Assembly (NCBI RefSeq): GCF_000284455.1
Contig: NC_017039.1
Span: 3,360,001-3,392,000 of the forward strand
DNA length: 32,000 nucleotides
Reading direction: 5' to 3'
Source: Synechocystis sp. PCC 6803 substr. PCC-P
Lineage (GTDB): Bacteria > Cyanobacteriota > Cyanobacteriia > Cyanobacteriales > Microcystaceae
Shown piece after piece: positions 4,965-30,014 of the stretch. The position numbers were made by a program, and so were the translations under genes. The notes beneath the pieces are model-generated. The model worked only from the letters and a program-made list of their open reading frames with translations, searched no databases and was not told the DNA's origin. Every line of letters begins with the position of its first letter. The first letter of the stretch is position 1.

Positions 4965-5118
4965 TTTTGCCCCACTCCTTGGAAAAATTACCAGCTAATT
5001 ATCGTAGCTGTACAATGCCGCCCTGTGGGAGATGATCACAAATTCCCGCCGTTGGCCGCAAATCCTCTGGACGAAATTTTTCCTTTAACCACAAAGGGAT
5101 TTTCGGGGAACAAGTTTA

Positions 5119-5192
5119 TGGACGTAACTGGATTCGAACCAGTGACCCCATCGATGTCAACGATGTACTCTAACCAACTGAGCTATACGTCC
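5119..5192 (-). tRNA. trnV: tRNA-Val (anticodon GAC), CCA not encoded
   Basis: The reverse complement reads GGACGTA-TA-GCTC-AGTTGGTTA-GAGT-A-CATCG-TTGACAT-CGATG-GGGTC-ACTGG-TTCGAAT-CCAGT-TACGTCC-A. The acceptor, anticodon and T stems are fully paired. The T loop is the canonical TTCGAAT. The anticodon loop is TT-GAC-AT. Confidence 0.95.
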
Positions 5193-5243
5193 TAGCAATT
5201 TAGTAATATAGCATGGCTCCATTTAAATTAACAATTGCTCCCC

Positions 5244-6116
5244 ATGCCTTCCATCACCGGTAAAACTAAGCTCCTTGGTGTGATCGGTTATCCTGTTGGT
5301 CATTCCTTATCCCCTGTGATGCATAATGCGGCGCTCCAGGCCATGGCCAGTGATTATGCATATGTTGCCTTTCCCATTGCTCCAGAGGATTTAACCATCG
5401 CCATAGCAGGGTTAGGAGCCAGTGGAGTCCAGGGATTAAGCGTGACCATTCCCCATAAGCAAGTGGTGATGCCATTGTTGACCCAGATAACCGAAACCGC
5501 TCGGCAAGTGGGGGCCGTGAATACTCTCTGGCGGGATGGCCATGGCTGGCAGGGAACCAATACGGATGTTGAGGGTTTTTTGGCTCCCTTGTTGGAGTTA
5601 AAGCAAGATTGGTCAGGGAGGACGGCGGTGATTCTCGGCTATGGTGGAGCCGCGCGGGCCGTGGTGGTGGGTTTAACCCAATTGGGTTGTCCAGAAATTA
5701 TTGTGGTGGGTCGCAGTCAAGAAAAATTAGCTCAGTTCGCCAACAGTTGGACGGACCCCAAAATTAAGCAAGCTCTGCAAGTTCTACCCTGGGAAGCTCT
5801 ATCTACCGTGATCCCCAAAGCAAGTTTATTGATTAACAGCACCCCCGTGGGCATGGCTCCCCACCCTAAGCAATCCCCCCTGGATCAATCCCTTGTGGAA
5901 AAACTACCGCCAACGGCGATCGCCTATGATTTGATTTATACTCCCCGCCCCACCAGGTTTTTACAACATGCTCAGGAGCGGGGTCTAGTGACCATTGATG
6001 GAGCAGAAATGCTAGTGCAACAGGGAGCCGCCGCCTTGAAAATTTGGCTACAACAGGAAGTGCCGGTGGACGTTATGCGCCAAGCCCTACTCCATCACTT
6101 AGAAAAATCTGCCTGA
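5244..6116 (+). CDS. aroE: Shikimate 5-dehydrogenase
   Basis: The ORF is open from TTG at 5235; the first ATG is at 5244. LLGVIGYPVGHSLSPVMHNAA is the AroE N-terminal signature. SVTIPHK and GTNTDVEGF are also present, plus the NADP-binding GYGGAARAV loop. Confidence 0.9.
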   Translation: MPSITGKTKLLGVIGYPVGHSLSPVMHNAALQAMASDYAYVAFPIAPEDLTIAIAGLGASGVQGLSVTIPHKQVVMPLLTQITETARQVGAVNTLWRDGHGWQGTNTDVEGFLAPLLELKQDWSGRTAVILGYGGAARAVVVGLTQLGCPEIIVVGRSQEKLAQFANSWTDPKIKQALQVLPWEALSTVIPKASLLINSTPVGMAPHPKQSPLDQSLVEKLPPTAIAYDLIYTPRPTRFLQHAQERGLVTIDGAEMLVQQGAAALKIWLQQEVPVDVMRQALLHHLEKSA

Positions 6117-6242
6117 TGACCCATTGGTAAGGGTTTTGGATAATTCTGCCCACCAAGGAAAACCGGAGAAATGTTCCTTGGGGTTGCGGGAAAACATTAT
6201 ATTGAGAATGTTTAAACTTGCCCCTGCCGAAACAAAGCCGTC

Positions 6243-7448
6243 ATGATTCACCATCCCCCCGCTGGGGCTAGGGATTTATTGCCCCTGGAAGTCGCCCAGA
6301 AAGCTCGCATTAATGACCAATTGCAACAAACCTTTCATCGTTGGGGCTATCAGCGCATTGTTACCTCCACCCTGGAATGGCTGGATACCCTAGTGGCCGG
6401 TGGGGCAATTTCGGCTAATAACGTGATTCAACTCCAAGACAGTGGCGAGGGACGGTTGGGGTTACGGCCAGAATTAACCGCATCCATTGCCCGGGCAGTC
6501 GTGACCCGCATGACTGACAATCAGCCCCAAAGATTGTGTTACCGGGCCAACGTCTTTCGTAATCCTCCGGAGGGCTACCACGGTAAGCAAATGGAGTTTT
6601 TCCAAGCGGGCATAGAATTGCTCTTTGCTGGGGGCGTCCGGGCCGATGCAGAAATTCTCCTACTGTTGACGGATTGCCTGACCCAATTGGGTTTAAGCGA
6701 TTGGCAATTGATTTTGGGTGATGCCGGTCTGACCAGAAGCCTATTGGCCAAATTACCCCCCACTCTCCAAGCCACTGTGCGGGATTGCATCACCCGTTTG
6801 GACTATGTAGAACTTTCCCAACTCCCCTATCCTGACAATGAAGCTAAAAATCTTGCTTTGCAACTGTTTGACCTGCGGGGCACAGTGGAGGAAGTTTTGG
6901 CCAGACTGGGCAAGTTAGATTTACAGGGGGAATGTCTGGGTCTGGTCGATCGCCTGCAGGCGTTGTTGTGCCTAGTGGCGGCCAGTGGAGATGGGCCCGC
7001 TAATCTGGTATTGGACTTGAGTTGGCTCCAGCCGTTTGATTACTACACTGGCATGGTTTTCCAAGCGGTGAGTCGCCAGGCCGATAACTGTTATGTGTTG
7101 GGCCAGGGGGGGCGTTATGACCAACTGCTCAGCCAATATCATCCCCAACAGCAGTCTTTTCCTGGTACGGGATTTTCTTTGAACATTGAGGAGCTACACC
7201 AATGTTTGCTTGAATTGGGGACTTTACCCACCAGTACCGCCCCCATCGATTATCTAGTTTGTCCAGTGGATGACACCGCCGAAGGAGCAACCTTTCGCCA
7301 TGCCCAACAGTTGCGCCGCCAGCATCCCGATCGCCGGGTAGAATTGGACCTAGGGGGGCGATCGCCGGAGGAGTTAAATACCTATGCCCAAGCCATGGCT
7401 GTGGGACAAATTGTCTGGGTTGGGGCCGATGGCCCGGTTGATCTGTAA
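6243..7448 (+). CDS. hisZ: ATP phosphoribosyltransferase regulatory subunit (HisRS-like paralog without an anticodon-binding domain)
   Basis: 401 aa. The N-terminus PAGARDLLPLEVAQKARINDQLQQTFHRWGYQRIVTSTLEWLD is class-II HisRS core-like. At about 400 aa it is too short for a full HisS and lacks a recognisable C-terminal anticodon-binding domain. Confidence 0.75.
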   Translation: MIHHPPAGARDLLPLEVAQKARINDQLQQTFHRWGYQRIVTSTLEWLDTLVAGGAISANNVIQLQDSGEGRLGLRPELTASIARAVVTRMTDNQPQRLCYRANVFRNPPEGYHGKQMEFFQAGIELLFAGGVRADAEILLLLTDCLTQLGLSDWQLILGDAGLTRSLLAKLPPTLQATVRDCITRLDYVELSQLPYPDNEAKNLALQLFDLRGTVEEVLARLGKLDLQGECLGLVDRLQALLCLVAASGDGPANLVLDLSWLQPFDYYTGMVFQAVSRQADNCYVLGQGGRYDQLLSQYHPQQQSFPGTGFSLNIEELHQCLLELGTLPTSTAPIDYLVCPVDDTAEGATFRHAQQLRRQHPDRRVELDLGGRSPEELNTYAQAMAVGQIVWVGADGPVDL

Positions 7449-24603: not shown

Positions 24604-26292
24604 GTGAAACCCCGTTCTTTTTTCGTTCTACTGGCCGCCGTTGCAATTTTTTCATTGGCTGTGGCCGGCTGGGGTACTGCCCTGGTACTAGGCCACAGTC
24701 CCCTTAATTTAGCCCGGGGAGGGGTGAGCCGTAGTCCCATGGCCCCAGGGTTAATTCCTGGCCAGTCACCCATTATGGTGTCTTTGCTGGTTAATCCCGA
24801 TCGCCTGGAAGCCTTTACCCAATTGGCAGTTAATCCTGGGCGGCGGCGTCGATCCCACCGGGAGTTGGCCGAGTTGGAGCAGAGTTTGCTTGCTAAAACG
24901 GGGCTGGATTATCGCAAAGAGGTGAAACCCTGGTTAGGGGAGGAAGTTACCCTAGCGGTGACAGATTTGGATTACGACCACAATGGAAGCAATGGAGCCC
25001 AACCGGGATATTTACTGGTGGTCCACAGCCGGGATCCAGAGCTGAGTCGGGAGTTTTTGCAACTGTCCTACGCCACTGCGGCGATCGCCGGAGATACGGA
25101 CCTGGTGTTTGACCGTTACCAAGGAGTCAAAATTACCTATAAACACCCCGTTAACCCAGTGCCCAACGGCAATTTACTGGCCAGTGCGGTGGTGGGGGAC
25201 TATGTTCTATTTGCCAATCATCCCCAGGTTTTGCGCCAGGCTTTAAATAGTTTGCAGGCCCCTTCCCTCAGCCTGGCCCAAACCGCAACTTACCAACAGG
25301 CCCTAGCCAGTTTAAATAACCCGAAATTGGGAATAGTTTATGCTAATTTTCCTGCCCTTGCCGCTTGGCTTGGCCAGCGACCTGCCATTGATAAAAATTC
25401 TGACCAAACGGCGATCGAACAAACTTTAACAGTGGCTTTATCTCTCCAAGCCCAGGGATTGGTGGCCCACACTGCTTTGACGGGGGTACCTAGCAATAAC
25501 CCAGGGGAAAAGGCGGAAAATGTAACTGCCATTAAAACCAATTTAGTTAACTTACCCCCCAGCAGTAGCTTGGTAATTAATGGTCAAAACCTAGCTCAAC
25601 AATGGCAACAGTTGGCCACGGGTTTAGCCCCCCATAGTCTCCTACAACAGGCCTTAAGTAAGTTAGTTTATGATTGGCAACAGCCCCTAGGTTTAGATTT
25701 AACCACTGATATTTTTCCTTGGGTGCAAGGCGATTATCAATTAATCTTTTTGCCCAAAACTAATCCGAGCCAAAATGATTGGGTATTTGCCGCCCAGGAC
25801 TTGGATGCCGCCGCCACTGACTTAGCTTTGGAACATCTAGATCAATTGGCGATCGCCGCTGGCTACCAATTATCAACTTTGGACCTGGGTGGGCAACGGG
25901 TATGGGCTTGGACTAGTCTCCAAACCCTGGCCAAGCAGAATATTACCAGCCTACAAACCCAAGTTAGGGGAGTTCATTGCCGAGTCGGCGATCGGGTAAT
26001 TTTGGCCAGTTCCCTCGAAGCTTTATCCCAAGTGTTGGACCAAACCAGTCCTTCCTTGGCTGATCAACCAGAATTTCAACAGGCATTGTCCACTTTGCCC
26101 GATGACAGTTACGTTTACCTTGATTGGCAAAGGGGAGAACCATTTTTTAGCCAACAATTACCCGTGCTCAGGGTATTGGAGTTATCGCTCAAACCTCTGT
26201 TTAAAAATTTACGATCCCTAACCATTAATCAAGAGTCTAGCTCCACTTCCATTAGCAACAGCACTATTTACCTGAATCTGGGGGTTGATTAG
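24604..26292 (+). CDS. Membrane-anchored hypothetical protein (possibly DUF3352 family)
   Basis: 562 aa with a GTG start. It has one N-terminal TM helix (FFVLLAAVAIFSLAVAGWGTALVL) and a large soluble domain. The DUF3352 label comes from memory of similar cyanobacterial proteins and is not verified. Confidence 0.6.
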   Translation: MKPRSFFVLLAAVAIFSLAVAGWGTALVLGHSPLNLARGGVSRSPMAPGLIPGQSPIMVSLLVNPDRLEAFTQLAVNPGRRRRSHRELAELEQSLLAKTGLDYRKEVKPWLGEEVTLAVTDLDYDHNGSNGAQPGYLLVVHSRDPELSREFLQLSYATAAIAGDTDLVFDRYQGVKITYKHPVNPVPNGNLLASAVVGDYVLFANHPQVLRQALNSLQAPSLSLAQTATYQQALASLNNPKLGIVYANFPALAAWLGQRPAIDKNSDQTAIEQTLTVALSLQAQGLVAHTALTGVPSNNPGEKAENVTAIKTNLVNLPPSSSLVINGQNLAQQWQQLATGLAPHSLLQQALSKLVYDWQQPLGLDLTTDIFPWVQGDYQLIFLPKTNPSQNDWVFAAQDLDAAATDLALEHLDQLAIAAGYQLSTLDLGGQRVWAWTSLQTLAKQNITSLQTQVRGVHCRVGDRVILASSLEALSQVLDQTSPSLADQPEFQQALSTLPDDSYVYLDWQRGEPFFSQQLPVLRVLELSLKPLFKNLRSLTINQESSSTSISNSTIYLNLGVD

Positions 26293-26520: not shown

Positions 26521-27153
26521 TCAAAGATCCATACCTCCCTCACTGAGCACCACATTGGGATTTTCCCCCATGCGGAGGATATGGGCCGCCGTATTGTGTA
26601 CGCCAAATTCTGCCCCCAGTTGGGCCCCCAGGGTGCCATGGATGGCCATATAGGCCATGAGAAATAGGGCAAAACCGAGATAGGCCCAGCTAACTTCATT
26701 GCGGCAATTGGTGCGCCAAACAAACCGTTGATAGCCCCGCCAAATAGTTGTGCCCACCATCATCGCCAGTAGCAGGATGCCCCCCACGCCATGGAGCAAC
26801 ATGGTAGTACCAGCGCCAATGCCCCAATCACTGACTTGATTTGTGGGAGGTTGGGCCAAAAGAATTTCAAAAAAGCCCGCCGCCACCGTGAAAAAACTAA
26901 TGAAGGCACCGGCCACGGCATTGTACCAACCCACATCAAAGAAGTTTTGGCGCTGGGCGGGAATGGCAAACCCTTTGAGAATTGGCCGCTCCAAGGGGAA
27001 AAATACGCCCGCAAAATCAAAAATTAGGGCAATGATGAATAACCCCAGACTGAAATGAACCAAATTGGGATGGATGGGAAATCGGTAGGGCAGACCATTG
27101 GTGCCTAGCTGGAGGCCAATTTCTTTGAGTTGGTCAATCAGGGAAGGGTTCAT
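26521..27153 (-). CDS. DUF2231-like polytopic membrane protein (paralog b)
   Basis: I start it at the ATG at 27153 (MNPSLIDQLKEIG..., 210 aa). The 311-aa extension would overlap the upstream gene by over 230 nt. It has the HPNLVHF motif at the first TM helix, 4-5 hydrophobic helices, and further His residues in LLHGVGG and MAIHGTLG. Confidence 0.7.
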   Translation of the reverse strand: MNPSLIDQLKEIGLQLGTNGLPYRFPIHPNLVHFSLGLFIIALIFDFAGVFFPLERPILKGFAIPAQRQNFFDVGWYNAVAGAFISFFTVAAGFFEILLAQPPTNQVSDWGIGAGTTMLLHGVGGILLLAMMVGTTIWRGYQRFVWRTNCRNEVSWAYLGFALFLMAYMAIHGTLGAQLGAEFGVHNTAAHILRMGENPNVVLSEGGMDL

Positions 27154-27221
27154 GGTGCGGTCAATTTCCTCAGTGAAAATGAGATGGGGGGTAAAACTTC
27201 TATTTTGAAAACTTGTTAAGA

Positions 27222-27725
27222 CTAGGGAATAATGCCGTCTTTGGTTGCTTGGACTACGGGTAGGGTGTGCAGACCATAAACCCAATCCACTAGGGAGCCA
27301 AGGAAGATTTGGATGCATACTAACACCATAAATACAGTGGCTAGCATGAGGAAAGGCAGGCTGGTTTTCAGCGGATTTCGCACCCTCAACACTCCCCGCC
27401 AAGCCGTTAACCCTGCCAAAATGGCAGACAATGACCAGCCGTTGACCGTGTGCCAATCCAATGCCGGTTGGGCCGCCGGGTAGGGCATCGCTAGAGCCGC
27501 TTCAAATTCCCCAAAAATCACTGCAAAAAAAATGGCGATCGCCGCTGTGAGCCAATTCCACCAAGCGACTTCAAAGAACCGAGGCTTTTTTTGGAGGTAG
27601 CCCACCAGTTCACTAATGTAGGCAAAGAAAACCATGCCAATGACAAAGTGGACAATGATGGGATGGAGGGTATCGGGGTAGGGCAGATTTTGGTCATTGA
27701 GGGTGAACATGGGCAGGTTCCGCAA
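27222..27725 (-). CDS. DUF2231-like polytopic membrane protein (paralog a)
   Basis: 167 aa (alternative ATG at 27710, MFTLNDQ...). It has the HPIIVHF motif at the first TM helix, four hydrophobic helices and later His residues (DWHTVNGW, VYGLH). Confidence 0.7.
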   Translation of the reverse strand: MRNLPMFTLNDQNLPYPDTLHPIIVHFVIGMVFFAYISELVGYLQKKPRFFEVAWWNWLTAAIAIFFAVIFGEFEAALAMPYPAAQPALDWHTVNGWSLSAILAGLTAWRGVLRVRNPLKTSLPFLMLATVFMVLVCIQIFLGSLVDWVYGLHTLPVVQATKDGIIP

Positions 27726-27854
27726 AGTGGTTGGGTTTGGGGGCTGAAGTTAATAGTTGCCGGTGTGGTCAGGTCAAGAACAGATTTAAATACAAATTTA
27801 GCTAATTTAAAAACTAATAAAAAATTAAAAGTAATTGGCCATAGGTTAACCCCC

Positions 27855-29429
27855 CTACCGATTCATACCGGGGCTAGGTTGGGGGACGAAAGGAGCCCTT
27901 TCCCTTTCCGGTGTTTTGAAGCCAAGGTACAACAGGACGATAAAAATCAGGGGCGCAATGATGGCGATCGCCTTGATGCCTTGGTGTTCCTGCCGTTGGG
28001 CTGGGGTCATGGCGGCCCATTTTAGTTCCTGGGCGGTGGGGGCGTGGGGACGATGGAAACGGTCGATGGTTTCTTCCGCTAGCCATTGGGTGGTGGATTT
28101 GAAGTTATGCAGAGGAGTGGGCAATAGCTCTAGATAGGTGGCATTCCGCAATAAATCCCCTGCCTTGCCTTGGATGCGTACCCGGTCAAATAAATTGGCT
28201 ACCCCATTGTTCAAGCCCAACTTCATCAATGTGCCCCGCAGTTGGGGATCGGGACTAACTAACGGTTTACCATTGTGTACCGCCATTAAATTTTTGGCGA
28301 TCGCCGCTCCTTGTTGGTAGGCAATCTGGGCCAGGGCCGGTTTGGGATTATCTTTGACTGTCACACAGTCCCCGGCGGCAAATACCTGGGGAAAACTAGG
28401 CAATTGCAAAGTACTGGTTACTAGGGGTTGCCCATGGCGATCGAGTTCCTCGGCCGGAATCTGTTCCTTGAGGGTTTTGAGTAGAGGGTTAACCGCTGTG
28501 CCGGCGGTCCAAATGGTGGTGCCAGTGTCTAAGTGGCGCAATTCCTCCTCCCCAGTTTCCACAAACTGCAAACTTTCCGGGGTAACGCTTTTGACCCCCA
28601 CCCCTAACTTCAACGTCACCGGAATAGTTCTAGCTTGCAACTCCTCCAGGGCACAGCGCTTGAGCCCGCTATTGGCATCCCCGGCCAAAATTCCCGGCGC
28701 ATGGTTGACCAAGTAAATTTTTAAATCGTTGATATTGCCCCCCATGGGCACATACCAACTGGGCAGTAAATCCGCCAACGTGGCCGCCATTTCCACCCCC
28801 GCCGGCCCGGCCCCCACGATCGCCACGGTCAATAATCTTTCTTTTTCCGCTTGATCTGCTGTGGTTAACGACTTTTCTAAACAGGCTTTGAGATGATCCC
28901 TAAGGGCGATCGCCTCGGTTTGGGAACGGAAAGCAAAGGCATTTTCTGCCGCCCCCTGGGCCCCCAAATACCCCTGCACTGACCCCACTGCCAGCACCAA
29001 ATAGTCATAATGCTGTTCTTGGCCAGAATCAAGTACTAACCGTTTTTCCTTCAATTGCACATCCGCAACTCGGGCTTGGACTATATCAATGCCGCTATCG
29101 GCCAACAATTTTTCATAACTGGGACAAACCACCGACTCTGGTAACTCTTCGGTGAGCAACTCGTAGAGCATGGGCTTAAAGACAAAATTTGCCTGGGGTT
29201 CCACTAGGACAATGGGGCCGGCGTGCTGATGATGACGCAGATGGAGAGCAGTGAATAGTCCAACAAAACCACCACCGATAATCACCGTTGTTGCTGAATC
29301 AGACGAATTAATGGCCACAGTTTTCCATCCCACTCCCGAACAAGTTTCACTATGCCCGGAGGCACTTCCCCTGTAAAGGTAGCACGCAAGTAAAAAGTGG
29401 GGCCAATTTCCTGGAAACTGGAACCCCAC
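27855..29429 (-). CDS. ndbC: Type 2 NAD(P)H dehydrogenase (NDH-2) with a C-terminal hydrophobic helix
   Basis: The longest ORF is 524 aa. A GTG at 29318 (VAINSSDSATTVIIGGGFVGL) would place the first Rossmann motif at the usual distance from the N-terminus. The second dinucleotide motif is TVAIVGAGPAGVEMA. FAAGDC is present. The C-terminal helix is AIAIIAPLIFIVLLYLGF. Confidence 0.85.
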   Translation of the reverse strand: MGFQFPGNWPHFLLACYLYRGSASGHSETCSGVGWKTVAINSSDSATTVIIGGGFVGLFTALHLRHHQHAGPIVLVEPQANFVFKPMLYELLTEELPESVVCPSYEKLLADSGIDIVQARVADVQLKEKRLVLDSGQEQHYDYLVLAVGSVQGYLGAQGAAENAFAFRSQTEAIALRDHLKACLEKSLTTADQAEKERLLTVAIVGAGPAGVEMAATLADLLPSWYVPMGGNINDLKIYLVNHAPGILAGDANSGLKRCALEELQARTIPVTLKLGVGVKSVTPESLQFVETGEEELRHLDTGTTIWTAGTAVNPLLKTLKEQIPAEELDRHGQPLVTSTLQLPSFPQVFAAGDCVTVKDNPKPALAQIAYQQGAAIAKNLMAVHNGKPLVSPDPQLRGTLMKLGLNNGVANLFDRVRIQGKAGDLLRNATYLELLPTPLHNFKSTTQWLAEETIDRFHRPHAPTAQELKWAAMTPAQRQEHQGIKAIAIIAPLIFIVLLYLGFKTPERERAPFVPQPSPGMNR

Positions 29430-29471: not shown

Positions 29472-30014
29472 TTACATAGGAGGCAGAATTACTTGGTCAA
29501 TGACATGGATTACACCGTTGCTGGCATCCACATCGGCGGAAATGACAGTGGCTTTGTTAACTTTCACTTTGCCATCTTTGACTTTGAAGGTGAGGGCTTC
29601 CCCAGCTAGGGATGCCACTTCACCGGATTGAACCTGGGCGGCGGTGATTTTGCCAGGAACGACGTGGTAGGTCAAAATTTTCACCAATTTATCTTTGTTT
29701 TCGGGCAACAACAGACTTTCCACCGTACCAGCGGGCAGAGCGGCAAAGGCATCATTGGTGGGGGCAAAAACGGTAAAGGGGCCTTCAGCGGATAAAGCTT
29801 CCACTAAATCAGCCGCTTTGACTGCTGCAACGAGGGTACTGAAAGTTTCATTGCCTGCGGCGACTTCCACAATAGTCATGGCGCTGTCCGTGGCGGCTTG
29901 ACTAACTACGGCAGATTTTTCGGTGGTTTCCATTTCCGCCATGGCAACGGTGGGCATCCCCAGGGCAAATCCAGTCAGAGCGGTAAAAGCAACAATTCTA
30001 GCAGCGGTTTTCAT
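29472..30014 (-). CDS. Secreted fasciclin (FAS1) domain protein
   Basis: 180 aa with a signal peptide (MKTAARIVAFTALTGFALGMPTVAMA). FAS1 blocks are FSTLVAAVKAADLVEAL, PFTVFAPTNDAFAALP and NGVIHVIDQVILP. Confidence 0.85.
   Translation of the reverse strand: MKTAARIVAFTALTGFALGMPTVAMAEMETTEKSAVVSQAATDSAMTIVEVAAGNETFSTLVAAVKAADLVEALSAEGPFTVFAPTNDAFAALPAGTVESLLLPENKDKLVKILTYHVVPGKITAAQVQSGEVASLAGEALTFKVKDGKVKVNKATVISADVDASNGVIHVIDQVILPPM

What the first reader, a model, noticed from the sequence alone, without database searches (positions are those of the whole stretch)
26521..29429. NDH-2 (ndbC) followed by two paralogous His-rich DUF2231-like membrane proteins: a possible multi-subunit membrane redox module
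On the minus strand the type-2 NADH dehydrogenase gene has two Rossmann motifs, IIGGGFVGL and IVGAGPAGVE. Two paralogous polytopic membrane proteins follow it after gaps of 129 and 68 nt. Each opens its first TM helix with HP(I/N)(I/L)VHF and carries more His residues in later helices (LLHGVGG, MAIHGTLG, DWHTVNGW).

NDH-2 enzymes are normally single-subunit, monotopic proteins. This one also has an unusual C-terminal hydrophobic helix (AIAIIAPLIFIVLLYLGF). Intramembrane His pairs are what one would expect for b-type haem or metal ligation, or for a quinone site. The pair could therefore be a dedicated membrane partner or electron acceptor for NdbC. I know of no described function for these DUF2231-like proteins.
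Basis: partly seen in the sequence, partly recalled or inferred. Interest (0 to 1): 0.7.

Follow-up and report, generated by a model that had tools for sequence, protein, structure and literature searches.

The report
Oxidase-linked His-rich membrane protein pair
The two His-rich membrane proteins after the NADH dehydrogenase gene ndbC are real paralogues of unknown function, but across cyanobacteria their constant neighbour is a copper-A-less terminal oxidase (ARTO), not NdbC, so they are probably accessory parts of that oxidase.

Summary
The minus strand carries ndbC (Sll1484-type NDH-2, two Rossmann motifs, conserved C-terminal TM helix). It is followed by two paralogous 4-TM DUF2231 proteins, a and b, which fall in the ≥90%-identity clusters of Sll1485 and Sll1486. 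Their His residues are invariant and cluster on the periplasmic side.

In 80 cyanobacterial loci, a and b are always paired, with a 4-nt stop/start overlap in 71 of 76. They sit directly upstream of a CuA-less heme-copper oxidase operon (COX2-COX1-COX3, ARTO/cox3 type) in 67 of 73 loci. An NDH-2 lies directly upstream in only 9 of 72 loci.

The pair has duplicated and diverged together with its cognate oxidase. The literature lists alr2729-alr2730-coxB3A3C3 as one Anabaena operon.

NdbC-type NDH-2 genes do recur in this cluster (13 of 20 NdbC-centred loci), sometimes with a heme o synthase gene. The window therefore holds a remnant of a dehydrogenase + DUF2231 pair + ARTO cluster whose oxidase genes are not in it. 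They lie elsewhere in PCC 6803, from my own recollection.

Most likely a and b form a heterodimeric accessory module of ARTO with a periplasmic-side His-ligated metal or heme centre. The cofactor and exact role remain untested.

The parts
27855..29429 (-). ndbC, a type-2 NAD(P)H dehydrogenase (Sll1484-type). This is the maximal GTG ORF of 524 aa. The true start is probably an internal GTG at 29333, 29318 or 29285.
   Evidence: Pyr_redox_2 at E 3.6e-34. 89% identical to the gene at the same position in Synechocystis salina LEGE 00031 (L001). 53-60% identical to NDH-2 genes upstream of a-b in other cyanobacteria.
27918..27971 (-). Coding region for the C-terminal hydrophobic helix of NdbC (residues 487-504, AIAIIAPLIFIVLLYLGF).
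   Evidence: Mean Kyte-Doolittle hydropathy of 2.7 over 18 residues. An equivalent helix (A-L-A-I-L-A-P-I-x-F-L-I-A-A-Y-x-G-L) is present in all full-length NdbC orthologues upstream of a-b.
27711..27854 (-). 144-nt AT-rich spacer between the ndbC stop and the ATG of gene a.
   Evidence: Sequence read. The consensus scan found no promoter-like or terminator-like site there, so co-transcription is undecided from sequence.
27222..27710 (-). DUF2231 protein a (Sll1485 orthologue), 162 aa with 4 TM helices. Invariant His codons: H16 at 27663-27665, H21 at 27648-27650, H87 at 27450-27452, H148 at 27267-27269.
   Evidence: PF09990 at 143 bits. It falls in the ≥90% cluster of Sll1485, UniProt P74613. 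AlphaFold2 model with pLDDT 83.8 and pTM 0.78, helices 15-40, 44-73, 78-111 and 118-146. Conservation. The positive-inside rule gives an N-out/C-out topology.
27154..27221 (-). 68-nt a-b spacer. This is atypical: in most cyanobacteria the a stop and b start overlap by 4 nt.
   Evidence: The 4-nt overlap is seen in 71 of 76 loci.
26521..27153 (-). DUF2231 protein b (Sll1486 orthologue), 210 aa with 4 TM helices plus extra loops. Invariant His codons: H28 at 27070-27072, H33 at 27055-27057, H121 at 26791-26793, H172 at 26638-26640, H186 at 26596-26598.
   Evidence: PF09990 at 137.6 bits. It falls in the ≥90% cluster of Sll1486, UniProt P74612. AlphaFold2 model with pLDDT 77.1, helices 27-50, 68-99, 114-149 and 156-183. 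Conservation.

Best explanation
Genes a and b (Sll1485/Sll1486 orthologues) encode a pair of paralogous 4-TM proteins made in fixed proportion. They most likely act as a heterodimer. [quoted passage not shown]

By position they correspond to alr2729 and alr2730, the two uncharacterised membrane-protein genes that head the Anabaena ARTO operon.

Each protein places a cluster of invariant residues at the periplasmic face of the membrane: His-Pro-x-x-Val-His at the start of TM1, a His at the start of TM3, a Gly-(Leu/Val)-His after TM4, and a Glu at the end of TM2. I propose that this cluster ligates a redox-active centre, either b-type heme or Cu/Fe. That centre would serve the CuA-less oxidase on its periplasmic side. 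Most likely it works as extra subunits providing an electron-entry or metal-reducing site. Alternatively it is a dedicated factor that loads CuB or heme.

ndbC sits beside the pair because the ancestral cluster encoded a whole plasma-membrane chain: (heme o synthase) - NDH-2 - a - b - ARTO, running NAD(P)H to plastoquinone to O2. The oxidase genes are not in this window. By my recollection of the PCC 6803 genome, not tested here, they lie elsewhere (sll0813 and slr2082-slr2083), leaving ndbC-a-b behind.

Shown: family membership, paralogy, His conservation, predicted topology, synteny, co-duplication, and published co-regulation and localisation.

Inferred: the heterodimer, physical association with ARTO, the cofactor and the mechanism.
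For: Synteny seen from the pair, in 80 loci from the genome collection:
- a and b are adjacent in 79 of 80 loci.
- A COX2-like gene is the next gene in 67 of 73 informative loci.
- COX1 (PF00115, E 4e-158) is present in 62 of 64 loci, and COX3 follows.
- The b-to-cox2 gap is 150 nt or less in 66 of 68 loci.
- All 68 COX2-like proteins lack the CuA Cys/His/Met ligands, with a median of 0 Cys. This is the ARTO/CtaCII signature.

Translational coupling: the a stop and b start overlap by 4 nt in 71 of 76 loci.

Co-evolution:
- In three genomes with two clusters, a, b, COX1 and COX2 are each closer to the same-type cluster of other genomes than to their in-genome paralogue.
- Pairwise-identity correlations of a or b with COX1 or COX2 are 0.89-0.94, against 0.96 for COX1 with COX2.

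Literature:
- The ARTO operon of Anabaena is given as alr2729-alr2730-coxB3-coxA3-coxC3 (PMC6616624).
- All four are co-regulated 'putative membrane proteins' and cox3 genes (PMC7065334; PMC4390870).
- NtcA binds upstream of alr2729, listed as the 'cox3 operon' (PMC3898017).
- In Synechococcus PCC 7002 the sll1486 homologue A0728 is numbered next to ctaCII (A0727). Both were labelled by lumen-targeted APEX2. Sll1486 and CtaCII are both listed as inner-membrane proteins (PMC7880944).
- NdbC and ARTO are both plasma-membrane proteins (PMC6878006). Both fall in abundance under mixotrophy (PMC9175036).

Fuller clusters: a heme o synthase gene (NF003349, 424 bits) lies upstream of ndbC in L007, L010, L017 and L019 and in L094, L098, L099 and L110.

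Redox or metal role of the family:
- H16, H21 and H87 are kept in 84-98% of distant members.
- Distant DUF2231 proteins are fused to cytochrome c (PSCyt1, three cases), Rieske (one case) and HMBD (two cases), or carry His-rich tails.
- They sit directly beside cupredoxins (L173, L174), a multiheme cytochrome c (L172), multicopper oxidases (L085, L088, L175) and YHS proteins (L081, L089).

Topology: the positive-inside rule puts all conserved His on the periplasmic side.
Against: - No cox gene lies in this window. The ARTO link here rests on orthology, not on local context.
- In Synechocystis-like loci (L001, L092, L093, L005) the pair stays with ndbC after losing the oxidase genes. This could reflect a functional tie to NdbC.
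- The name Alr2729 could not be recovered for any sequence, so equivalence with alr2729/alr2730 is positional inference.
- No significant sequence or fold match to any heme-binding or copper-binding protein. Foldseek best E is 0.17 for a and 0.45 for b. Pfam Ni_hydr_CYTB and COX15-CtaA matches are below threshold.
- The copper-homeostasis contexts of distant members fit a chaperone or loading role as well as they fit an electron-transfer role.
- H148 is specific to the cyanobacterial proteins.
Confidence: 0.6

Rival explanations
1. Assembly factor. The a/b pair is not part of the mature oxidase. It is a dedicated biogenesis factor that binds Cu (or heme) at its periplasmic His cluster and loads the CuB-heme centre of ARTO subunit I, in the way Cox11, Caa3_CtaG or Surf1 act elsewhere.
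For: - Distant DUF2231 proteins are fused to the HMBD copper-binding domain or carry His-rich tails.
- They sit in copper clusters: CopA/CopZ/MerR/OEP/multicopper oxidase in L088 and L175, DUF305 plus multicopper oxidase in L085, and YHS in L081 and L089.
- Cox11 is confined to proteobacteria and eukaryotes, and Caa3_CtaG to Bacillota and Actinomycetota. Oxidase-specific assembly genes are commonly clustered with oxidase genes (PMC9145763).
- A biogenesis gene, heme o synthase, shares the cluster.
Against: - Fusions and adjacency to cytochrome c, Rieske and multiheme cytochromes involve no copper.
- a/b diverge with the oxidase as tightly as its own subunits do.
- Both a-b translational coupling and first position in the operon suggest stoichiometric production.
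- Peptides of the b orthologue are readily detected in membrane proteomes.
- No a/b gene was seen next to a CuA-containing coxB in the 80 loci, although that oxidase also needs CuB.
Confidence: 0.22
2. First reader's model. a/b are a dedicated membrane anchor or electron acceptor of NdbC, forming a multi-subunit NDH-2 module.
For: - Adjacency in this window and in Synechocystis-like loci that lack cox genes (L001, L092, L093).
- 12 of 20 NdbC-type loci have a-b directly downstream.
- NdbC orthologues in this position share a true C-terminal TM helix.
Against: - An NDH-2 is the upstream neighbour of a-b in only 9 of 72 loci and absent within ±6 kb in 60 of 80.
- The NDH-2 can sit at either end of the cluster, separated from a-b by the three cox genes.
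- It is replaced by a GMC oxidoreductase in other clusters.
- 7 of 20 NdbC-type loci have no a-b nearby.
- By general knowledge, NDH-2 enzymes reduce quinone directly.
Confidence: 0.08
3. Heme-modifying enzyme. a plus b form a split, heme A synthase-like 2 x 4-TM enzyme that tailors the heme used by ARTO.
For: - Sub-threshold Pfam matches to COX15-CtaA: a at E 0.03, and 3 of 78 distant members at E 0.001 or better, best 2e-5.
- The architecture of two paralogous 4-helix bundles with outer-side His on alternate helices resembles CtaA, from my own knowledge of the CtaA structure.
- A heme o synthase gene shares the cluster.
Against: - Scores are below the Pfam cut-off (13.8 against 29.9 bits).
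- Profiles of the family find no CtaA chain in the PDB even at E 10.
- Foldseek does not retrieve CtaA.
- The contexts of distant members are copper and electron-carrier proteins, not heme biosynthesis.
Confidence: 0.05

Closest known systems
alr2729-alr2730, the two uncharacterised membrane-protein genes at the head of the Anabaena sp. PCC 7120 ARTO (cox3/Qox) operon alr2729-alr2730-coxB3-coxA3-coxC3
   Same: Two consecutive small membrane-protein genes directly 5' of a CuA-less coxB-coxA-coxC. In more than 50 Nostocales loci examined here, the genes at that position are the DUF2231 a and b orthologues (55-60% identical to the window proteins). They are co-regulated with the oxidase genes in published transcriptomes.
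   Different: In this window the oxidase genes are absent and ndbC precedes the pair. The identity of alr2729/alr2730 with DUF2231 a/b is inferred from position in relatives, not read from the PCC 7120 sequence. Neither pair has a tested function.
Small accessory subunits of heme-copper oxidases (for example subunit IV: CyoD, CtaF)
   Same: Small polytopic membrane proteins encoded in the oxidase operon that co-evolve with the core subunits.
   Different: Subunit IV proteins carry no conserved His cluster and no cofactor, and they are encoded after the core genes. a/b are two paralogues, are encoded first, have invariant periplasmic-side His/Glu residues, and belong to a family that also occurs without any oxidase.
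Di-heme membrane cytochromes b that anchor periplasmic redox enzymes (FdnI, HyaC and prokaryotic cytochrome b561, PF01292)
   Same: Four-helix transmembrane bundles with conserved His on different helices. They partner with periplasmic redox proteins. Distant DUF2231 genes sit beside cupredoxins and multiheme cytochromes or are fused to cytochrome c or Rieske domains.
   Different: No significant sequence or fold match (PF01292 at 15.2 bits against a cut-off of 30.1; Foldseek E above 0.1). The conserved His residues all lie on one membrane face, and two of them are only 5 residues apart on TM1. They are not spaced about 13 residues apart for two stacked hemes.
CuB or copper delivery factors of oxidases (Cox11_CtaG, Caa3_CtaG/CtiP, CopD-type proteins)
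   Same: Membrane proteins encoded next to oxidase genes, with metal-binding residues exposed on the outer side. Distant DUF2231 members lie in copper-homeostasis clusters or carry HMBD or His-rich tails.
   Different: No homology detected to any of these families. Cox11 uses a CXC motif and a single TM helix. DUF2231 has no conserved Cys.

Membership tests
DUF2231 (Pfam PF09990) | Match to the family HMM above the gathering score (26.4 bits) over the whole domain | tested here: met
   a: 143 bits over profile positions 2-137 of 139. b: 137.6 bits over positions 2-138 of 139.
DUF2231 (Pfam PF09990) | Family-wide conserved residues: H-P-x-x-V-H-F at the start of TM1, D/E late in TM1, His at the start of TM3, W-R at the end of TM3, G-G in TM4 | tested here: met
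   All are present in a and b. Frequencies in 83 distant representatives: H16 92%, H21 84%, H87 98%, D/E34 96%, R105 95%, G138 98%.
Type-2 NAD(P)H dehydrogenase, NdbC (Sll1484) orthologue group | Two dinucleotide-binding GxGxxG motifs in a Pyr_redox_2 fold | tested here: met
   IIGGGFVGL (residue 50) and IVGAGPAGVE (residue 204). Pyr_redox_2 at E 3.6e-34.
Type-2 NAD(P)H dehydrogenase, NdbC (Sll1484) orthologue group | Orthology to Sll1484 | tested here: inconclusive
   The sequence was not compared with Sll1484 itself. It is 89% identical to the gene at this position in Synechocystis salina. Its two downstream neighbours are the Sll1485 and Sll1486 orthologues. The C-terminal TM helix is shared by the 53-60% identical NDH-2s found upstream of a-b.
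Type-2 NAD(P)H dehydrogenase, NdbC (Sll1484) orthologue group | NAD(P)H:quinone oxidoreductase activity with a non-covalent flavin | not testable with these tools
   Biochemical property. Only the sequence class is shown here.
ARTO-operon leader genes (alr2729/alr2730 type) | Position immediately 5' of a CuA-less coxB-coxA-coxC operon on the same strand | tested here: not met
   tblastn finds no cox or ctaB gene anywhere in the 32-kb window. Downstream of b lies a convergent DUF3352 gene. The feature is met by the orthologues in 67 of 73 loci.
ARTO-operon leader genes (alr2729/alr2730 type) | Orthology to the proteins that occupy that position in other cyanobacteria | tested here: met
   a is 54-76% and b 59-77% identical to the proteins encoded upstream of the CuA-less oxidase. 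The window pair groups with the NdbC-linked cluster type, as in L002 and L006-L010, where cox genes follow.
ARTO-operon leader genes (alr2729/alr2730 type) | Sequence identity with the PCC 7120 gene products themselves | tested here: inconclusive
   Exact look-ups of four Nostocaceae a proteins returned no member named Alr2729. Equivalence rests on position and on the description 'putative membrane proteins'.
Membrane cytochrome b (PF01292 Ni_hydr_CYTB / bacterial cytochrome b561) | Significant match to the family profile or fold | tested here: not met
   a: 15.2 bits, E 0.018, against a cut-off of 30.1. b: no hit. Foldseek against the PDB gives best E 0.17 for a and 0.45 for b.
Membrane cytochrome b (PF01292 Ni_hydr_CYTB / bacterial cytochrome b561) | Bound b-type heme ligated by two His | not testable with these tools
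   Needs spectroscopy of the expressed protein.
Heme A synthase (COX15-CtaA, PF02628) | Match above the gathering score (29.9 bits) | tested here: not met
   a: 13.8 bits, E 0.03. 3 of 78 distant members reach E 0.001 or better, best 2e-5. Family profiles find no PDB CtaA chain at E up to 10.
CuB insertion factors (Cox11_CtaG, Caa3_CtaG) | Homology to either family | tested here: not met
   No such Pfam or NCBIfam hit for a or b, even at E up to 10 in Pfam.

The most novel reading that the evidence does not exclude
The DUF2231 a/b heterodimer is the missing periplasmic-side redox module of ARTO. It would be a His-ligated heme or copper centre that gives the CuA-less oxidase its electron entry. 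It might also be the site of the ARTO-dependent periplasmic Fe(III)/Cu(II) reduction reported for Synechocystis. More broadly, DUF2231 would be a widespread, undescribed class of 4-TM membrane redox partners for extracytoplasmic cupredoxins, multicopper oxidases and c-type cytochromes.
Probability: 0.25. Interest if true: 0.8.

Novelty: new variant of a known kind. Interest (0 to 1): 0.6.

Why it matters
ARTO is the least understood cyanobacterial terminal oxidase. By my recollection of the field, its electron donor and its subunit composition are unsettled. The published report that it supports periplasmic iron reduction (PMC7676907) has no stated mechanism.

This work shows that two conserved, His-rich, uncharacterised membrane proteins travel and diverge with ARTO across cyanobacteria. 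In Synechocystis these are the easily mutated genes sll1485 and sll1486. That turns an open question into direct experiments.

It also gives the first context-based functional lead for DUF2231. The family has at least 1,845 clusters at 50% identity and no literature.

Finally, it reframes ndbC-sll1485-sll1486 as the remnant of a compact plasma-membrane NAD(P)H-to-O2 chain cluster.

Tried and rejected
- Sequence search of a, b and two family profiles against all PDB chains found no relative.
- AlphaFold2 models of a and b searched with Foldseek against the PDB gave only generic 4-helix bundles (CcmF, COX3/CyoC, cytochrome bd, STEAP1, FdnI) at E 0.17 or worse. I do not use these as evidence.
- A paired a-linker-b alignment was built to test the heterodimer with AlphaFold2.
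- A metagenome scan with the 78-sequence distant DUF2231 alignment failed because no stretch was conserved enough. I used twelve single-protein context look-ups instead.
- An attempt to recover the names Alr2729/Alr2730 through exact cluster look-ups did not succeed.
- The promoter/terminator scan of the ndbC-a spacer gave nothing above background. By eye there is a TTGACC-N16-TATTAA motif, which I do not count as evidence.
- The Huokko 2017 NdbC paper (PMC5490909) and the supplement of the Baers 2019 proteome map are not held.
- The COX15-CtaA and cytochrome b561 similarities were considered and set aside as sub-threshold.

Full report
**What is in the window**

On the minus strand, 29429 to 26521 holds three genes.

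The first is an NDH-2, ORF 27855-29429. It matches Pyr_redox_2 at E 3.6e-34. Its two dinucleotide-binding motifs are IIGGGFVGL (29256-29282) and IVGAGPAGVE (28791-28820). It also has a strongly hydrophobic C-terminal helix, AIAIIAPLIFIVLLYLGF (27918-27971).

After a 144-nt AT-rich spacer comes gene a (27222-27710, 162 aa). After a further 68 nt comes gene b (26521-27153, 210 aa).

Both a and b match Pfam DUF2231 (PF09990) at 143 and 138 bits against a cut-off of 26.4. They are 31% identical to each other, E 4e-18.

Exact-sequence cluster look-ups place a and b in the ≥90% clusters of Sll1485 (P74613) and Sll1486 (P74612) of Synechocystis sp. PCC 6803. The best genomic match is Synechocystis salina LEGE 00031, where a is 100% identical. 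Only the start codons of a, b and probably ndbC need correcting.

**Anatomy of a and b**

AlphaFold2 models (a: pLDDT 83.8, pTM 0.78; b: pLDDT 77.1, pTM 0.70) give four long transmembrane helices. Protein b has an additional N-terminal helix and larger loops.

The charge distribution is consistent for both proteins. The TM1-2 and TM3-4 loops carry 3-4 Lys/Arg. The N-terminus, TM2-3 loop and C-terminus carry none or one. This gives an N-out/C-out topology.

All conserved His residues therefore fall on the periplasmic side. The same holds for a Glu at the end of TM2 (E70 in a, E96 in b).
- In a: H16 and H21 at the start of TM1, H87 at the start of TM3, and H148 just after TM4.
- In b: H28, H33, H121 and H186 in the equivalent places.
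- b has one more invariant His (H172) in TM4, where a has an invariant Gln (Q134).

Every His in a is invariant across 16 orthologues down to 54% identity. Five of the six His in b are invariant.

Across 83 distant family representatives, the TM1 pair and the TM3 His are kept in 84-98% of sequences. The C-terminal His is specific to cyanobacteria.

**What the pair is linked to**

A pattern scan of one genome per species (GTDB) with the a family returned 80 cyanobacterial loci. I called ORFs, clustered them and annotated the recurrent clusters with Pfam and NCBIfam.

- a and b are adjacent in 79 of 80 loci. The exception, L003, has an inserted PIN-domain gene and a 470-aa ORF.
- The a stop overlaps the b start by 4 nt in 71 of 76 loci.
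- The next gene after b is a COX2-like protein in 67 of 73 informative loci.
- COX1 (E 4e-158) is present in 62 of 64 loci, and COX3 follows it.
- None of the 68 COX2-like proteins has the CuA ligand motif, and their median Cys count is zero. This is the hallmark of ARTO subunit II (CtaCII/CoxB3).
- By contrast, an NDH-2 is the gene directly upstream of a in 9 of 72 loci. It lies upstream within 6 kb in 11 loci. It lies downstream of COX3 in 9 of 60 by ORF calling, and tblastn shows NDH-2 fragments at the ends of three further loci.
- 60 of 80 loci have no NDH-2 within 6 kb.

**Co-evolution with the oxidase**

Three genomes carry two a-b-cox clusters: Chroococcus sp. FPU101 (L008/L067), Nostoc P12641 (L057/L071) and Nostoc S62 (L068/L080). 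A fourth pair of loci from one genome (L004/L069) was not analysed this way, because L004 keeps only a COX2 fragment.

In each of the three, a, b, COX1 and COX2 are all much closer to the same-type cluster of other genomes than to their in-genome paralogue. For example, a is 56% identical within the genome but 79% identical to the same-type cluster elsewhere.

Across 62 loci, pairwise identities of a or b correlate with those of COX1 or COX2 at r = 0.89-0.94. The two oxidase subunits correlate with each other at 0.96. Shared species history inflates all these values. The paralogue test shows that the whole five-gene block duplicated and diverged as a unit.

**The view from the NDH-2 side**

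A metagenome scan with an alignment of NdbC orthologues gave 80 further loci.

- Of 20 informative NdbC-type loci, 12 have a-b directly downstream and one has the a-b-cox cluster upstream. Seven have neither.
- Where sequence continues, the cox genes follow in 8 of 10 by my length filter. L129 also shows a COX2 fragment at the contig end.
- The exception, L092, has the highest identity to the window proteins of these loci (NdbC 70%, a 82%).
- A sister NDH-2 clade, about 47% identical to NdbC and with a different C-terminal segment, lies downstream of COX3. In 20 of 25 such loci with at least 65% identity to the reference, the a-b-cox cluster is upstream.
- In eight loci a heme o synthase gene (NF003349, 424 bits) precedes ndbC.
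- In other clusters a GMC-family flavoprotein oxidoreductase sits next to the oxidase genes instead.

The recurrent unit is therefore (heme o synthase) - dehydrogenase - a - b - ARTO. The dehydrogenase is variable in kind and position. The a-b pair is fixed directly ahead of the oxidase genes.

This window contains no cox or ctaB gene. From my own recollection of the PCC 6803 genome, not tested here, its ARTO genes are dispersed (sll0813; slr2082-slr2083). Taken together, ndbC-a-b looks like what remains of the cluster in this lineage.

**Agreement with the literature**

- A review gives the Anabaena sp. PCC 7120 ARTO (Qox, formerly Cox3) operon as alr2729-alr2730-coxB3-coxA3-coxC3 (PMC6616624).
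- Transcriptome tables list alr2729 and alr2730 as 'putative membrane proteins'. They change together with cox3B and cox3A, by log2 -4.3, -3.8, -4.2 and -5.1 (PMC7065334; also PMC4390870).
- NtcA binds upstream of alr2729, listed as the 'cox3 operon' (PMC3898017).
- In Synechococcus sp. PCC 7002 the homologue of sll1486 is A0728, numbered next to ctaCII (A0727). Both were labelled by a lumen-targeted APEX2. Sll1486 and CtaCII are both listed as inner-membrane proteins in Synechocystis proteomes (PMC7880944).
- NdbC and ARTO subunits both localise to the plasma membrane (PMC6878006). Both decline under mixotrophy (PMC9175036).

I could not read the PCC 7120 sequences themselves. That alr2729/alr2730 are DUF2231 a/b is a positional inference from more than 50 Nostocales loci.

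The word DUF2231 occurs in a single, unrelated paper of the searchable library. sll1485 occurs in none and sll1486 only in the table cited above. The link drawn here between sll1485/sll1486, DUF2231 and ARTO is not made in any paper of the library I could search.

**What the family does elsewhere**

A profile search of 1.84 billion representatives found 1,845 clusters at E up to 0.001.

Fusions seen in distant members:
- HMBD copper-binding domains, in 2 of 78 sequences.
- His/Asp-rich C-terminal tails.
- Planctomycete cytochrome c domains, in three proteins.
- A Rieske domain, in one protein.

Twelve context look-ups showed the following:
- DUF2231 directly after a cupredoxin (L173, L174).
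- DUF2231 directly after a multiheme cytochrome c (L172).
- DUF2231 directly after a YHS protein (L089), and two genes after one in L081.
- DUF2231 directly before a multicopper oxidase (L085), or separated from one by a single OEP gene within CopZ-MerR-OEP copper clusters that in L088 also hold CopA (L088, L175).
- DUF2231 near Ccm heme-lyase genes (L081, L083).
- DUF2231 next to a weak cytochrome b562 match (L090).
- Two contexts (L087, L091) showed no redox or copper neighbour.

The common thread is an extracytoplasmic copper protein or electron-transfer protein. This fits a periplasmic-face His site that binds a redox-active metal or heme.

It does not decide between an electron-transfer partner and a metal-loading factor. 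No structural or sequence relative in the PDB helps here. The Pfam matches to prokaryotic cytochrome b561 and to COX15-CtaA are below threshold.

**Most likely mechanism**

I commit to the following, with the confidence given for each step.

1. a and b form a heterodimer. This is inferred from invariant pairing and translational coupling. High confidence.

2. The pair is dedicated to ARTO. This is inferred from synteny, block co-duplication and published co-regulation and co-localisation. Confidence about 0.8.

3. Their periplasmic His/Glu clusters hold a redox-active centre that serves the oxidase, which has lost the CuA electron-entry site. I rate 'extra subunits that provide electron entry or a metal-reducing site' somewhat above 'dedicated CuB or heme loading factor'. 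The reasons are that a/b diverge with the oxidase as tightly as its own subunits, are encoded first and are coupled, are readily detected as proteins, and have relatives that partner with copper-free electron carriers.
   - The reported dependence of periplasmic Fe(III) reduction on ARTO (summarised in PMC7676907) would make sense if such an exposed centre existed.
   - Known CuB insertion factors are restricted to other phyla (PMC9145763), which keeps the assembly-factor rival alive.

4. NdbC is a co-clustered input dehydrogenase of the same plasma-membrane chain (NAD(P)H to plastoquinone to ARTO). It is not a physical partner of a/b.

**Verdict**

The feature is real. The proposed partner is probably wrong. 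The pair belongs with ARTO, and the NDH-2 is a frequent but dispensable neighbour.

The genes themselves are long annotated, and their operon link to ARTO is recorded for Anabaena. What is new is threefold. The family is identified as DUF2231. The coupling with CuA-less oxidases is shown to be pan-cyanobacterial and to include block co-duplication. Synechocystis ndbC-sll1485-sll1486 is reinterpreted as a remnant of that cluster. Function remains untested, and simple experiments would decide it.

Noticed in passing
L102-L106 (metagenome loci), about 4995-6460 in each: Five NdbC-type genes (59-61% identical) align only to residue 418 or so, and so lack the C-terminal TM helix. In three of them (L102-L104) a COX1-like fragment of 20-40 aa follows. 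In L103 the upstream heme o synthase gene is split in two. This looks like a decaying ndbC-a-b-ARTO cluster.
   Followed up: partly
L007 960-2546, L010 10671-12257, L024 10328-11839, L028 10484-12055, L044 10693-12270, L045 5286-6800, L067 10349-11854: A GMC-family FAD oxidoreductase of about 520 aa lies directly after COX3 in clusters that lack an NDH-2, and also flanks two NdbC-type clusters. It may be an alternative electron-input dehydrogenase for the same oxidase.
   Followed up: partly
L016 10352-10606 and 10 other Nostoc-type loci (for example L042 10584-10829): A conserved ORF of about 81 aa with no Pfam or NCBIfam match sits between COX3 and the downstream NDH-2. It could be a small oxidase subunit.
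   Followed up: no
L007 2827-3753; also L010, L017, L019, L094, L098, L099, L110: A heme o synthase (CtaB/CyoE) gene lies directly upstream of ndbC in the fullest versions of the cluster (NF003349, 424 bits against a cut-off of 246).
   Followed up: yes
L007 5331-5885 and L010 5333-5887; L006 5286-5795: A DUF308 membrane protein is inserted between ndbC and a in two loci. A DoxX protein lies between b and COX2 in one locus.
   Followed up: no
window 29472-30014 (-); protein P0297: A secreted fasciclin-domain protein is encoded directly upstream of ndbC. Separately, a 1,548-aa protein with nine fasciclin repeats (P0297) matched the DUF2231 profile in nine stretches and Pfam DUF2231 at E 1e-9. 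This is probably a compositional artefact, but it is an odd coincidence.
   Followed up: no
window 24604-26292 (+): A 562-aa DUF3352 protein (E 1e-153) is encoded convergently, just downstream of b, where other cyanobacteria have the oxidase genes.
   Followed up: no
window 26521-27456 (-); protein P0263: The longest b ORF (311 aa, TTG start) overlaps gene a. The original PCC 6803 Sll1486 entry is 265 aa, against 210 aa in most records. The older annotation therefore looks over-extended at the N-terminus.
   Followed up: partly
L019 (Scytonema sp. HK-05 plasmid1, 772600-785073); protein P0170 (Fischerella sp. NIES-4106 plasmid): In Scytonema sp. HK-05 a heme o synthase-ndbC-a-b-cox2-cox1 cluster sits on a large plasmid, though no intact COX3 was called there. 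In Fischerella sp. NIES-4106 a b homologue (P0170) is annotated on a plasmid. This fits with cluster mobility and with the two-copy genomes.
   Followed up: no
L003 6807-8919: This is the only locus where a and b are separated. A PIN-domain gene and a 470-aa ORF with no Pfam match are inserted between them.
   Followed up: no
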